A DNA stretch of 38,029 bases from a virus, in UHGV virus genome UHGV-0335973, one strand, 5' to 3'. Shown piece by piece: positions 11,825-12,608 of the stretch. The position numbers were made by a program, and so were the translations under genes. Numbering within the stretch: position 1 is the stretch's first letter; each line of letters begins with the position of its first letter. The notes under the pieces are model-generated. The model saw nothing but the letters and a program-made list of their open reading frames with translations, was not told the DNA's origin and searched no databases.

Positions 11825-12608
11825 AAATAAAACTGCCCATCTAACCTAATTCGGTGGAACTCTCTATGAGACAATACCGAGCAAGGACAGAATACTACCA
11901 CTTTAACAAGGAGGTAGTATGATAGAATATAAAAATACTGGTTATTATATAACCGAGTATGGAGAGGTTATCGGAAAACGTGGTTGGGTATTAAAGCCTT
12001 CAACTACTTCTGGTTACAAAGAAGTTAAGATTTGTGAGAACGGTGAAATCACTTATAAGAGAGTTCATCAATTAGTAGCCGAGTGCTATATTCCAAATCC
12101 TGACAACAAGCCAGTTGTAAACCATAAGGACGGAGACAAGTTCAACTGTCATAAAGATAACTTAGAGTGGTCAACTTATATAGAGAATAGTGCACATGCA
12201 ATCCAAACAGGGTTGCAGAAAACTGGAGTTGATCATTATAACACTGAACTAACTGAATCAGAAGTACATGCAATTTGTAAGCTTCTACAGAATGGCTTAC
12301 CAGTTAAACAGGTTTTCTATGAACTGTTAGATGCTGGTGTGGTCATTTATCCAACAAAGATAACTGATATTAAGCGTCATCAATGTTGGAAAGAGATTTC
12401 ATCTCAATACAGTTGGTAATAGGTTAGTATTCTGTCCGTGTGTAACGACTATCCCTGATGAGTGTAAGGGAGTAGGGCGCAAGCTAATGGCGTTCGAAAT
12501 GGTTGGCCTGTACGACGGTACAGGAAGATATAGTCTGTTCTGCATGGTGACATGCAGCAGTTCATAAGAGAACGGGCAGAAGTGTTGCGGCTTCTGTTGA
12601 ACACCAAG
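11825..12608 (+). mobile_element. group I intron (784 nt) with HNH endonuclease ORF in a peripheral loop
   Basis: P1 pairing exon GGGU with intron GCCC (~11835); P7-like strands GAGACAAT (~11868) and GATATAGTCT (~12527); GNRA-capped hairpins near 3' end; terminal G at 12608; in-frame joining gives ...AEWG|[32 protein letters not shown]. Confidence 0.65.
11919..12419 (+). CDS. intron-encoded HNH homing endonuclease (HNH_3-like)
   Basis: VHQLVAECYIPNPDNKPVVNHKDGDKFNCHKDNLEWST HNH motif; AAGGAGG SD. Confidence 0.7.
   Translation: MIEYKNTGYYITEYGEVIGKRGWVLKPSTTSGYKEVKICENGEITYKRVHQLVAECYIPNPDNKPVVNHKDGDKFNCHKDNLEWSTYIENSAHAIQTGLQKTGVDHYNTELTESEVHAICKLLQNGLPVKQVFYELLDAGVVIYPTKITDIKRHQCWKEISSQYSW

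What the first reader, a model, noticed from the sequence alone, without database searches (positions are those of the whole stretch)
11825..12608. Group I intron with HNH endonuclease interrupting the primase-helicase gene
The T7 gp4-like primase ORF stops at 11830 and the helicase domain resumes in frame at 12609, separated by an HNH endonuclease ORF. The 5' exon end GGGU can pair with intron GCCC (~11835) to form P1 with a G.U pair at the splice site. P7-like segments (GAGACAAT ~11868, GATATAGTCT ~12527) flank the ORF, and GNRA-capped hairpins precede a terminal G at 12608. Splicing would give one continuous protein (...KKAEWG|[32 protein letters not shown]).
Basis: partly seen in the sequence, partly recalled or inferred. 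Interest (0 to 1): 0.7.

Follow-up and report, generated by a model that had tools for sequence, protein, structure and literature searches.

The report
Group I intron in phage primase-helicase
A 784-base self-splicing-type (group I, subgroup IA2) intron carrying its own HNH homing-endonuclease gene interrupts the primase-helicase gene of this phiEco32-like E. coli phage; it is a well-supported but ordinary new member of a well-known family of mobile phage introns.

Summary
Window 11825-12608 (784 nt) is absent from about 73 closely related Kuravirus (phiEco32-like) genomes, where primase-helicase is one 1791-nt gene. Removing the insert restores that reading frame (…KKAEWG|IPYPW…). The insert has a complete group I ribozyme of the phage IA2 type: P1 with U·G at the 5' splice site, no P2, P3-P9, P7.1/P7.2 joined by GUA, the conserved J8/7-P7' AAGAUAUAGUC, and a terminal G. 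The HNH gene is looped out of P6a. Its core is 71-76% identical to the T4 nrdD intron, to phi92 and Vibrio-phage nrdD introns, and to the DNA-polymerase introns of T7-like phages. Across 11 related introns, 90.7% of modelled pairs hold, against 37-44% for slid controls, and 31 of 49 pairs show compensatory changes. Rfam misses it at its gathering score (27.7 of 50 bits) because the ORF splits the core. One detail was wrong: GAGACAAU at about 11868 is P5'/J5/4, and the real P7 5' strand is GACUAU at 12447-12452. Splicing is inferred, not shown. This is a new member of a known kind, of modest interest. [quoted passage not shown]

The parts
10892..11824 (+). Exon 1 of the primase-helicase gene (zinc-finger/TOPRIM primase half). 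Unspliced, it reads two more codons (AAA TAA) and stops at 11830.
   Evidence: ORF list. Weak Toprim_2 match, 18.6 bits, below the Pfam cut-off. Collinear at about 97% identity with the first half of the single primase/helicase CDS of YF01 and many other Kuraviruses.
11825..12608 (+). The whole group I (IA2-type) intron, 784 nt.
   Evidence: Exactly this stretch is missing from intronless relatives. Rfam RF00028 sub-threshold hit. Homology to known phage group I introns. Covariation.
11821..11838 (+). P1: exon GGGU plus intron A (11821-11825) paired with UGCCC (11834-11838). U11824·G11835 is the wobble pair at the 5' splice site. The loop is 11826-11833. A possible weak P10 pairs AAU 11826-11828 with exon-2 AUU 12609-12611.
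   Evidence: Read from the sequence. The local fold reproduces the hairpin (second sequence). Hand pairing of the sequences printed gives equivalent U·G-terminated P1 helices in PP90, Berlin, Vi06, Vib355 and JEP1. P10 is only 3 A-U pairs and is uncertain.
11841..11846 (+). P3 5' strand CUAACC, which pairs with GGUUGG at 12501-12506 across the ORF. No P2 lies between P1 and P3.
   Evidence: Unguided RNAalifold finds this long-range helix. All 6 pairs show compensatory changes and 100% of cells are paired in 11 introns.
11850..11881 (+). P4-P5 domain: P4 UUCGGU 11850-11855 with ACCGAG 11876-11881, J4/5 GGAAC, P5 UCUC 11861-11864 with GAGA 11868-11871, J5/4 CAAU.
Evidence: P4 has 4 of 6 and P5 2 of 4 pairs with compensatory changes.
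11882..11897 (+). P6/P6a 5' strand: CA, unpaired A, then GGACAGAAUACUA. It pairs with 12425-12440. The endonuclease ORF sits in the terminal loop.
   Evidence: RNAduplex gives -27.8 kcal/mol. Every ORF-bearing relative examined has a different but complementary stem at the same place, and the two ORF-less cores have short local P6 hairpins.
11893..11919 (+). Hairpin UACUACC…GGUAGUA that encloses the Shine-Dalgarno AAGGAGG (11908-11914) and abuts the AUG at 11919. It probably restrains endonuclease translation. Its 5' strand overlaps the tip of P6a, so the two pairings compete.
   Evidence: strand folding gives -9.3 kcal/mol, z = -2.9, and the hairpin is kept in XT73 with changed inner pairs. 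T4 intron endonucleases are regulated this way (PMC2988022). The function here is inferred.
11919..12419 (+). HNH homing-endonuclease gene (166 aa), of the I-HmuI type with an N-terminal HNH motif.
   Evidence: Pfam HNH_3 at 28.4 bits, above the 24.8 cut-off. PHROG 59 HNH at 5.8e-37. PDB 1U3E I-HmuI at E = 1.1e-5, with His and Asn residues aligned. 34-44% identity (26% for Vib355) to ORFs in related introns. dN/dS = 0.058 against XT73.
12425..12440 (+). P6a/P6 3' strand: UAGUAUUCUGUCC, G, UG.
12447..12452 (+). P7 5' strand GACUAU (guanosine-binding helix), which pairs with AUAGUC at 12530-12535 and forms the P3/P7 pseudoknot.
   Evidence: Five of the six pairs are invariant in all 11 introns. 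Alicyclobacillus phage KKP_3916 has GACCAU/AUGGUC, a compensatory change.
12453..12495 (+). P7.1 (CCCU 12453-12456 with AGGG 12467-12470), GUA linker (12472-12474), and P7.2 (GGGCGC 12475-12480 with GCGUUC 12490-12495). This is the IA2 signature.
   Evidence: The MFE fold recovers both hairpins. P7.1 has 3 of 4 pairs compensatory, including the U-A to C-G change between the window and XT73. For P7.2, hand pairing of the sequences gives a hairpin in each intron, but it was not scored. PMC3428280 gives P7.1/P7.2 joined by G-U-A as the IA2 criterion.
12501..12506 (+). P3 3' strand GGUUGG.
12507..12524 (+). P8 hairpin: CCUGUAC, loop GACG, GUACAGG.
   Evidence: The sequence differs in most relatives and a hairpin forms in all of them. 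All 6 pairs are compensatory.
12525..12535 (+). J8/7 (AAGAU) and P7 3' strand (AUAGUC). This is the most conserved motif of the family.
   Evidence: Rfam alignment. Invariant in the alignment. 94-98% identical in short BLAST hits to T4 nrdB and td, phiKZ and other phages.
12540..12596 (+). Peripheral 3' domain: P9 (CUGCAUG-GUGA-CAUGCAG, 12540-12557), P9.1 (GUUC 12560-12563 with GAAC 12570-12573), and P9.2 (CAGAAG 12577-12582 with CUUCUG 12591-12596).
   Evidence: P9.1 and P9.2 covary. The L9 loop is GUGA here and GCGA in XT73, both GNRA.
12608..12608 (+). Terminal guanosine (omega G), the 3' splice site.
   Evidence: Boundary fixed by the intronless alleles. The aligned 3' ends of the relatives also end in G.
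12609..13466 (+). Exon 2: DnaB-like helicase half, with Walker [10 protein letters not shown] about 26 codons downstream of the junction.
   Evidence: Pfam DnaB_C at 6.6e-11. Collinear with intronless homologues.

Best explanation
Window 11825-12608 is a mobile group I intron of the bacteriophage IA2 type, inserted at the start of the helicase domain of a T7 gp4-like primase-helicase gene in a Kuravirus (phiEco32-like coliphage).

Proposed splicing mechanism:
- The gene is transcribed through the intron.
- The RNA folds into the P3-P9 core, with the P3/P7 pseudoknot, the P4-P6 domain, and the IA2-specific P7.1/P7.2.
- The 5' exon end GGGU pairs with the internal guide GCCC to form P1.
- An exogenous guanosine bound in P7 attacks after U11824.
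- The freed exon then attacks after the terminal G12608.
- The exons ligate to …GAG UGG GGU|AUU CCA UAU…, which encodes one 596-aa primase-helicase identical in length to that of intronless relatives.

The 166-aa I-HmuI-like HNH endonuclease lies in the loop of P6a. It is presumed to nick or cut intronless alleles of the gene in mixed infections, so that recombinational repair copies the intron in (homing). Its ribosome-binding site lies in a hairpin, which probably limits its translation.

Shown here: the insertion and its exact boundaries, the restored reading frame, homology to known introns, the structure with covariation, and purifying selection on the ORF.

Inferred: that the intron actually splices, that the endonuclease is active with a target at this site, and that the hairpin regulates translation.
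For: 1. Exact insertion. 141 related records match the flanks and none covers 80% or more of the query. Only XT73 and XT18 carry the insert. YF01 has one 1791-nt CDS. The spliced junction matches 73 records ungapped. The spliced translation is continuous at 596 aa.

2. Splice-site rules are met: exon-terminal U paired with G in P1, and an intron-terminal G.

3. Homology.
- Rfam RF00028 scores 27.7 bits, E = 8e-5, over the 3' core.
- BLASTN of the 3' core finds 796 phage records. These include nrdD introns of T4-type phages, phi92 and Vibrio phages, T4 nrdB and td, DNA polymerase introns of T7-like Yersinia and Salmonella phages, and Vequintavirinae terminase introns.
- Berlin DNA polymerase and phi92 nrdD are annotated as spliced joins.
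- The G8 (T4-type nrdD) and phi92 relatives score 105 and 70.6 bits against RF00028.

4. Structure.
- The MFE fold of the ORF-deleted RNA gives P3, P4, P5, P6, P7.1, P7.2, P8 and P9.
- Unguided RNAalifold on 11 introns recovers P3, P4, P5, P7.1, P8, P9 and P9.1, and 24 of its 36 pairs are compensatory.
- My full model, including the P7 pseudoknot, has 90.7% of cells paired, against 37-44% for slid controls. 31 of 49 pairs change on both sides, and 0 of 500 shuffles reach these values.

5. IA2 hallmarks as listed in PMC3428280 for the PhiI, W31 and Pf-WMP3 introns are all present: no P2, P7.1/P7.2 joined by G-U-A, and the endonuclease gene in P6a.

6. The endonuclease is an HNH enzyme under purifying selection.

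7. Between the window and XT73 the ORF has dS = 0.77, yet the 189-nt 3' ribozyme part is 183/189 identical. The changes that do occur keep pairing or loop type: P7.1 U-A to C-G, P6a A-U to G·U, and L9 GUGA to GCGA.
Against: - No RNA or splicing data exist for this phage.
- Rfam's curated threshold is not reached (27.7 of 50 bits). The control shows this is expected when an ORF splits the core: the Berlin DNA polymerase intron, which belongs to the intron family reported as self-splicing in PhiI and W31, also fails.
- P1 is short (4 exon pairs plus 1) and P10 is only three A-U pairs.
- P7 is invariant, so it carries no covariation information within the 11-intron alignment.
- The alignment used for the pair counts was made by MAFFT and the model was derived from the window sequence. 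That favours the window's own pairs, although the unguided RNAalifold result agrees.
- The different divergence of the ORF and the ribozyme between the window and XT73 could partly reflect recombination rather than selection.
Confidence: 0.93

Rival explanations
1. The gene is truly split. A free-standing HNH endonuclease gene landed between the primase and helicase halves, which are now made as two separate proteins with no RNA splicing. The helicase would start at AUG 12552.
For: The two relatives with the insert annotate exon 1 and the HNH gene as separate CDSs (XT73 and XT18); neither record's fetched end reaches exon 2. An in-frame AUG exists at 12552. Free-standing HNH genes are common in phages (PMC2988022). 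T7 primase and helicase fragments are active separately (own knowledge).
Against: About 280 nt of non-coding sequence around the ORF form a complete group I core that is conserved and covaries. AUG 12552 lies inside the P9 stem and I see no Shine-Dalgarno sequence ahead of it. A helicase starting there would carry 19 residues translated from intron RNA. The insert boundaries obey the U/G splice rules and restore the reading frame exactly.
Confidence: 0.03
2. It is a genuine group I intron that no longer splices efficiently by itself. It may be decaying or need a protein cofactor, or its endonuclease may be inactive, so that it is an immobile relic.
For: P1 and P10 are short. The element is rare: 2 of about 75 database Kuraviruses plus this window, and none in IMG/VR. 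Inactive intron endonucleases are known, for example T4 I-TevIII (PMC2988022).
Against: The interrupted gene is presumably essential for replication, so a viable phage needs splicing. All core elements are intact. The differences from XT73 preserve structure, and the ORF has dN/dS = 0.058 with the HNH catalytic residues present.
Confidence: 0.04

Closest known systems
T4 nrdD (sunY) intron and the nrdD introns of phi92, Vequintavirus JEP1 and Vibrio phage 355E48.1
   Same: The core has the same architecture and is 74-79% identical over P7 to P9. The shared motifs are J3/4 UAA, ACUCUC…GAGACAAU, AACGACUA, the P7.1 loop GAUGA(A/G)UGUA, GUAGGG, GAAGAUAUAGUCU, and the P9 hairpin CUGCAUGGUGACAUGCAG. 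[quoted passage not shown] The T4 intron is experimentally self-splicing and mobile (PMC2988022).
   Different: The host gene differs: ribonucleotide reductase there, primase-helicase here. In T4 the endonuclease is the GIY-YIG enzyme I-TevII, placed downstream of P9 rather than in P6a. phi92 has no ORF.
DNA polymerase introns of T7-like phages (PhiI, W31; here Yersinia phage Berlin and Salmonella phage Vi06), Bonocora & Shub 2004
   Same: Subgroup IA2, no P2, P7.1/P7.2 joined by GUA, and the endonuclease ORF in P6a (PMC3428280). The 3' core is 73% identical, E = 1e-17. Both interrupt a replication gene of a podovirus.
   Different: The host gene and insertion site differ. The Berlin ORF is of the Endo VII type, not I-HmuI-like. 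The second intron of this same window (23557-24262) is the closer counterpart of that family.
Portal / head-tail connector introns of Pectobacterium phage PP90 and Pseudomonas phage Ep4 (Autographiviridae)
   Same: Both the 5' and the 3' ribozyme halves align at 78%. The HNH ORF is homologous, at 38-44% identity over 75-122 aa, and sits at the same P6a position.
   Different: A structural gene is interrupted. P1, P3, P6a, P8 and P9.2 have entirely different, compensating sequences.
I-HmuI (SPO1 DNA polymerase intron HNH nicking endonuclease, PDB 1U3E)
   Same: It is the best solved-structure relative of the ORF, E = 1.1e-5 over residues 8-95. The motif …VVNHKDGDKFNCHKDNLEW aligns with …VVDHKDGNKDNNLSTNLRW.
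   Different: Sequence identity is low and the C-terminal DNA-binding region is not alignable. Target and cleavage mode are unknown here.
The same intron in Escherichia phages vB-EcoP-XT73 and vB-EcoP-XT18 (GenBank OR757436, OR757434)
   Same: Same insertion site and same architecture, with 90% nucleotide identity over the whole intron and 91% for the protein.
   Different: Those records annotate exon 1 and the HNH gene as separate CDSs (with an automatic note 'Phage intron' on the HNH gene) and no intron feature or join. The ORF is strongly diverged at synonymous sites (dS = 0.77).

Membership tests
Group I catalytic intron (Rfam RF00028) | The insertion is precisely excisable: removing it restores a continuous, conserved reading frame. 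| tested here: met
   The 784-nt insert is absent from 73 intronless relatives, and the spliced ORF is 596 aa, the same length as the intronless gene.
Group I catalytic intron (Rfam RF00028) | The 5' exon ends in U, paired with G of the internal guide sequence in P1, and the intron ends in G. | tested here: met
   U11824·G11835 within GGGU/GCCC, and G12608.
Group I catalytic intron (Rfam RF00028) | A conserved core made of the P3-P8 and P4-P6 domains, with the P3/P7 pseudoknot, supported by comparative data. | tested here: met
   90.7% of cells are paired against 37-44% for slid controls, 31 of 49 pairs are compensatory, and all 6 P3 pairs covary. P7 is invariant within the alignment.
Group I catalytic intron (Rfam RF00028) | The score reaches Rfam's gathering threshold of 50 bits. 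| tested here: not met
   27.7 bits, E = 8e-5. In the control, ORF-less or 3'-ORF relatives score 70.6 and 105 bits, but the ORF-in-P6a Berlin intron also fails. Partial matches caused by endonuclease loops are a known limitation of this model (PMC11878797). The failure is attributed to the 527-nt insertion (ORF and flanks) between the two strands of P6a, not to a missing core element.
Group I catalytic intron (Rfam RF00028) | Guanosine-dependent self-splicing of the transcript. | not testable with these tools
   This needs in vitro transcription and splicing, or RT-PCR.
Subgroup IA2 (phage type) | Extra helices P7.1 and P7.2 between P7 and P3', joined by G-U-A. | tested here: met
   12453-12470, GUA 12472-12474, and 12475-12495. 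P7.1 covaries. For P7.2, hand pairing of the sequences gives a hairpin in each intron, but it was not scored. The criterion is taken from PMC3428280.
Subgroup IA2 (phage type) | Sequence similarity to accepted IA2 members (T4 nrdD, td and nrdB; T7-like DNA polymerase introns). | tested here: met
HNH homing endonuclease (Pfam HNH_3, I-HmuI-like) | The HNH_3 domain scores above the Pfam gathering score. | tested here: met
   28.4 bits against a cut-off of 24.8. PHROG 59 at 5.8e-37.
HNH homing endonuclease (Pfam HNH_3, I-HmuI-like) | Catalytic His and Asn residues are conserved relative to a solved member. | tested here: met
   Alignment to 1U3E: N-H-KDG…N…N-LEW.
HNH homing endonuclease (Pfam HNH_3, I-HmuI-like) | Site-specific nicking or cleavage of the intronless allele, and intron homing. 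| not testable with these tools
   Only indirect support: a sporadic distribution among 97%-identical phages and dN/dS = 0.058.
T7 gp4-like bifunctional primase-helicase (host gene) | An N-terminal TOPRIM primase and a C-terminal DnaB-family helicase in one polypeptide. | tested here: inconclusive
   DnaB_C is clear at 6.6e-11. Toprim_2 scores only 18.6 bits, below the 22.1 cut-off. The intronless orthologues are annotated 'DNA primase/helicase' as a single CDS.

The most novel reading that the evidence does not exclude
The intron may be more than a neutral parasite. Unspliced RNA terminates translation two codons into the intron, which would give a free-standing 312-aa primase, while spliced RNA gives the full primase-helicase. 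Splicing efficiency could therefore set the ratio of the two forms, loosely like the two gp4 forms of T7.

There is also a wider pattern. [quoted passage not shown] The Kuravirus replication module may be an unrecognised hot spot where several intron/endonuclease pairs compete, possibly affecting marker exclusion between co-infecting phages.
Probability: 0.1. Interest if true: 0.5.

Novelty: new member of a known kind. Interest (0 to 1): 0.3.

Why it matters
The main value is correct annotation. In this phage, and in GenBank phages XT73 and XT18, primase-helicase is one spliced gene, not a truncated primase followed by a separate helicase fragment.

The case also shows that Rfam at its gathering score misses ORF-bearing phage introns. 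Both introns in this window were missed.

Within the searchable literature I found no report of group I introns in Kuravirus or phiEco32-like phages, or in a gp4-type primase-helicase gene. The finding therefore extends the known host-gene and taxon range of the T4-nrdD / T7-DNA-polymerase intron family, and it points to intron homing as a source of mosaicism among these therapeutic-candidate coliphages. It does not reveal a new mechanism.

Tried and rejected
- Rfam at its gathering score found nothing over the whole window. Only the permissive local search showed the partial RF00028 match.
It would leave no room for P3-P6 upstream, and the segment aligns with P5'/J5/4 of all relatives.
- An outer pairing GUUCA 12560-12564 with UGAAC 12598-12602 was considered for P9.1. 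I rejected it in favour of the local GUUC/GAAC hairpin, which covaries in JEP1 and phi92 (helix 8).
- The synonymous differences next to the junction (ATT and CCG here, ATC and CCA in YF01) were considered as co-conversion or immunity marks specific to intron-bearing alleles. This is not supported: several intronless phages (ES17, MN05, myPSH2311) differ from the spliced junction by only 1 of 150 nt.
- IMG/VR holds no exact junction pattern and no close relative of the HNH protein, so no extra copies were found there.
- Bonocora & Shub 2004 (PMC529087) is not held. Its content is cited only through PMC3428280.
- Literature searches for Kuravirus or phiEco32 with intron, for primase-helicase with group I intron, and for XT73 found nothing relevant.
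- An intein or a group II intron is excluded: there are in-frame stops at 11828 and in the 3' part, and the RNA core is group I.
- The large protein-database and structure-prediction tools were not used, because the answer did not depend on them.
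Full report
**What is at the coordinates.** The window comes from a Kuravirus (phiEco32-like podovirus of E. coli, subfamily Gordonclarkvirinae). The 2.6-kb region 10892-13466 matches 141 phage records, mostly at about 97% identity. None of them covers 80% or more of the query. The ORF 10892-11830 is the primase half, with a weak Toprim_2 match. ORF 11919-12419 is an HNH_3 endonuclease. ORF 12552-13466 contains a DnaB_C helicase domain. In phage YF01 and many others the primase/helicase is a single 1791-nt CDS.

**The boundaries.** Pairwise alignments put the insert at …GAGUGGGGU|AAAUAA……CACCAAG|AUUCCAUAUCC. 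The shared A leaves a one-base ambiguity, which the group I rule (exon-terminal U, intron-terminal G) resolves. The in-silico ligated junction aligns ungapped over 150/150 nt, at up to 99.3% identity, with 73 intronless Kuravirus records. The ligated ORF is 596 aa plus stop, the same length as the intronless gene, and reads …KKAEWG|[32 protein letters not shown]….

**Is it a group I intron?** Rfam at its gathering score found nothing in the whole window. A permissive local scan gave RF00028 at 27.7 bits, E = 8e-5, carried by GAAGAUAUAGUCU and the following GNRA hairpin.

A control explains the low score. The T4-type nrdD intron in phage G8 scores 105 bits and the ORF-less phi92 nrdD intron scores 70.6 bits. 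The Yersinia phage Berlin DNA polymerase intron, which carries an ORF in P6a as this one does, gets no gathering-level hit at all. A recent survey of Bastillevirinae introns describes the same limitation (PMC11878797).

BLASTN is much more informative. The whole element is 90% identical to an insert at the same site in phages XT73 and XT18. The 189-nt 3' part alone finds 796 phage records. These include:
- nrdD introns of T4-type phages, phi92, JEP1 and Vibrio phages;
- the T4 nrdB and td regions;
- DNA polymerase introns of T7-like Yersinia and Salmonella phages;
- terminase introns of Vequintavirinae;
- portal-gene introns of Pectobacterium and Pseudomonas podoviruses.

The T4 td, nrdB and nrdD introns are self-splicing and mobile (PMC2988022). 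The PhiI/W31 DNA polymerase introns are the IA2 models cited in PMC3428280.

**Structure.** With the ORF replaced by a tetraloop, the minimum-free-energy fold already gives P3, P4, P5, P6/P6a, P7.1, P7.2, P8 and P9. The 3' part alone folds with z = -2.98.

The model in window coordinates:

| Element | Sequence and position |
|---|---|
| P1 | GGGU·A 11821-25 with U·GCCC 11834-38 (U11824·G11835) |
| P2 | absent |
| P3 | CUAACC 11841-46 with GGUUGG 12501-06 |
| J3/4 | UAA |
| P4 | UUCGGU 11850-55 with ACCGAG 11876-81 |
| P5 | UCUC 11861-64 with GAGA 11868-71 |
| P6/P6a | 11882-97 with 12425-40, ORF in the loop |
| J6/7 | UGUAAC |
| P7 | GACUAU 12447-52 with AUAGUC 12530-35 |
| P7.1 | 12453-70 |
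| Linker | GUA |
| P7.2 | 12475-95 |
| P8 | 12507-24 |
| J8/7 | AAGAU |
| P9 | 12540-57, GUGA loop |
| P9.1 | 12560-73 |
| P9.2 | 12577-96 |
| Terminal G | 12608 |

The absence of P2, the GUA-linked P7.1/P7.2, and the endonuclease gene in P6a are exactly the features reported for the IA2 introns of PhiI, W31 and Pf-WMP3 (PMC3428280).

**Comparative test.** I cut the ORFs out of 11 related introns and aligned them with MAFFT. The set was:
- the window intron and XT73;
- the window's own second intron;
- PP90 and Ep4;
- Berlin and Vi06;
- Vibrio phage 355E48.1, JEP1 and phi92;
- the T4-type nrdD intron of G8.

Unguided RNAalifold recovered P3, P4, P5, P7.1, P8, P9 and P9.1, and 24 of its 36 pairs are kept through double changes. 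The long-range P3, which spans the ORF, has compensatory changes at all six pairs and no broken cell.

Counting my full model, including the P7 pseudoknot:
- 90.7% of 514 cells are standard pairs, against 37-44% when the partners are slid by 1-3 columns.
- 31 of 49 pairs change on both sides.
- The covariation score is 0.456, against 0.07-0.10 for the slid controls.
- No shuffle out of 500 reaches any measure.

P7 is invariant in this set, as expected for the guanosine-binding helix. An Alicyclobacillus phage relative has GACCAU/AUGGUC, which is compensatory. P6a stems are completely different in sequence but complementary in every ORF-bearing intron examined.

There are two caveats. The model was derived from the window sequence. 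The sequences are related, so the shuffle count is not a probability. The slid controls and the unguided prediction address both points.

**Selection.** Between the window and XT73 the HNH ORF has dS = 0.77 and dN = 0.044, so dN/dS = 0.058. The 189-nt 3' ribozyme segment is 183/189 identical and the last 300 nt of the upstream exon is 295/300 identical.

The few ribozyme differences keep the structure:
- P7.1 changes from U-A to C-G.
- P6a changes from A-U to G·U.
- L9 changes from GUGA to GCGA.

Both the protein and the RNA therefore look functionally constrained. Recombination between intron variants could contribute to the uneven divergence.

**The endonuclease.** The 166-aa protein matches Pfam HNH_3 above threshold and PHROG 59 at 5.8e-37. 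Its closest solved structure is I-HmuI of the SPO1 DNA polymerase intron, at E = 1.1e-5, with the H…N…N motif aligned. It is 34-44% identical (26% for Vib355) to the ORFs in the related terminase, portal, nrdD and Kuravirus introns.

Its Shine-Dalgarno sequence AAGGAGG (11908-14) lies inside a hairpin, UACUACC/GGUAGUA, at -9.3 kcal/mol and z = -2.9. The hairpin is retained in XT73. This resembles the RBS-sequestering hairpins that control the T4 intron endonucleases (PMC2988022). That role is inferred here.

**Mechanism and confidence.** The best explanation is a mobile, self-splicing IA2 group I intron. Exogenous G attacks after U11824. The freed exon then attacks after G12608, and ligation restores one primase-helicase mRNA. 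The HNH enzyme promotes homing into intronless alleles. I put this at 0.93.

The rivals are unlikely:
- A truly split gene with a free-standing HNH gene (0.03). This fails to explain a complete, covarying ribozyme. It would also need translation to start at AUG 12552, which lies inside the P9 stem with no visible Shine-Dalgarno sequence ahead of it.
- A splicing-impaired or immobile relic (0.04).

Splicing and endonuclease activity remain undemonstrated.

**Distribution and novelty.**
- Among about 75 database Kuraviruses only XT73 and XT18 carry this intron. Both annotate exon 1 and the HNH gene as separate CDSs, with no intron feature.
- IMG/VR holds no copy.
- I found no paper describing introns in Kuravirus or phiEco32-like phages, or in a gp4-type primase-helicase gene. 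Subscription journals are not covered.

The element is a new member of a very well-known kind. Its interest is modest, mainly for annotation and for phage mosaicism.

**Seen in passing.** A motif scan revealed a second group I intron in the same window, 23557-24262. It interrupts the DNA polymerase gene in motif B (…RDNAKTFI|DAFNYGAG…) and carries an Endo VII-type ORF. Its ligated junction matches 64 intronless Kuraviruses ungapped, and Rfam's gathering score missed it too.

Other Kuraviruses carry further introns in the replication module. VTCCBPA_211 has one after …FFLYDNFG in the helicase domain. O18-011 has an HNH gene plus a core motif between the primase-helicase and exonuclease genes.

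Noticed in passing
window 23557-24262 (+): A second group I intron in the same window, in the DNA polymerase gene. Exon 1 ends …AAGACGUUUAU (U23556), the intron ends …AUAUACG (G24262), and exon 2 starts AGAUGCGUUC. The ligated protein reads …RDNAKTFI|DAFNYGAGDAKLG… (Pol A motif B). That is about 3 nt from the site used by the T7-like phage DNA polymerase introns. It has the same core motifs (AACGACUAU at 24110, GAUAUAGUC at 24182, and P9/P9.1/P9.2 like the first intron). Its ORF of about 166 aa (23674/23681-24180) is of the Endo VII type, PHROG 307 at 1.7e-34, and runs into P7-P7.2. The ligated junction matches 64 intronless Kuraviruses ungapped at 96%. Rfam's gathering score missed it.
   Followed up: partly
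L002 (Escherichia phage VTCCBPA_211, PP989838) about 1749-2487; equivalent to window about 12910: Another Kuravirus has a different group I intron at a second site in the same primase-helicase gene, after …FFLYDNFG. P1 is CUUCGGU/GCCGAAG, and GAUAUAGUC is at 2405. It carries a 176-aa HNH ORF annotated 'hypothetical protein', 38% identical to the window's HNH. The record annotates the gene as three unrelated CDSs.
   Followed up: partly
L015 (Escherichia phage O18-011, NC_070985) 694-1445: An HNH endonuclease gene plus a group I core-like motif (BLAST hit at 1301-1341) lies between the end of the primase/helicase gene and a shortened 'DNA polymerase' (exonuclease) CDS. This suggests a third intron site in the Kuravirus replication module.
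   Followed up: no
L008 (Escherichia phage 18-1-2) 177/252 and 1502/1577; L005 (PP90) 7 and 1860: The comparison loci contain extra copies of the P7 and J8/7 motifs. The terminase large-subunit gene of 18-1-2 is annotated as several CDSs and seems to hold at least two introns. PP90 has further motif copies flanking the portal intron.
   Followed up: no
window 11893-11899 versus 11913-11919 and 12422-12429: The strand UACUACC can pair with the local GGUAGUA (a hairpin that hides the endonuclease ribosome-binding site) or with the distal GGUUAGUA (extending P6a across the ORF). These are two mutually exclusive foldings that could couple ribozyme folding to endonuclease translation.
   Followed up: partly
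window 11919-12419 versus L003 2607-3107: The endonuclease ORF of the window and of XT73 differs far more at synonymous sites (dS = 0.77) than the flanking ribozyme (3% divergence) or exons (1.7%). This could mean strong RNA-level constraint, or that the two phages acquired diverged intron variants, or that there was ORF-region recombination.
   Followed up: partly
window 13460-14017 and 13962-15332: The 3'-5' exonuclease gene starts (GTG 13460) a few bases before the primase-helicase stop codon at 13464-13466, overlapping that gene by 7 nt. It also overlaps the next long ORF by 56 nt. This is compact overlapping gene organisation, as in other Kuraviruses, where the exonuclease is a separate DNA polymerase subunit.
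   Followed up: no
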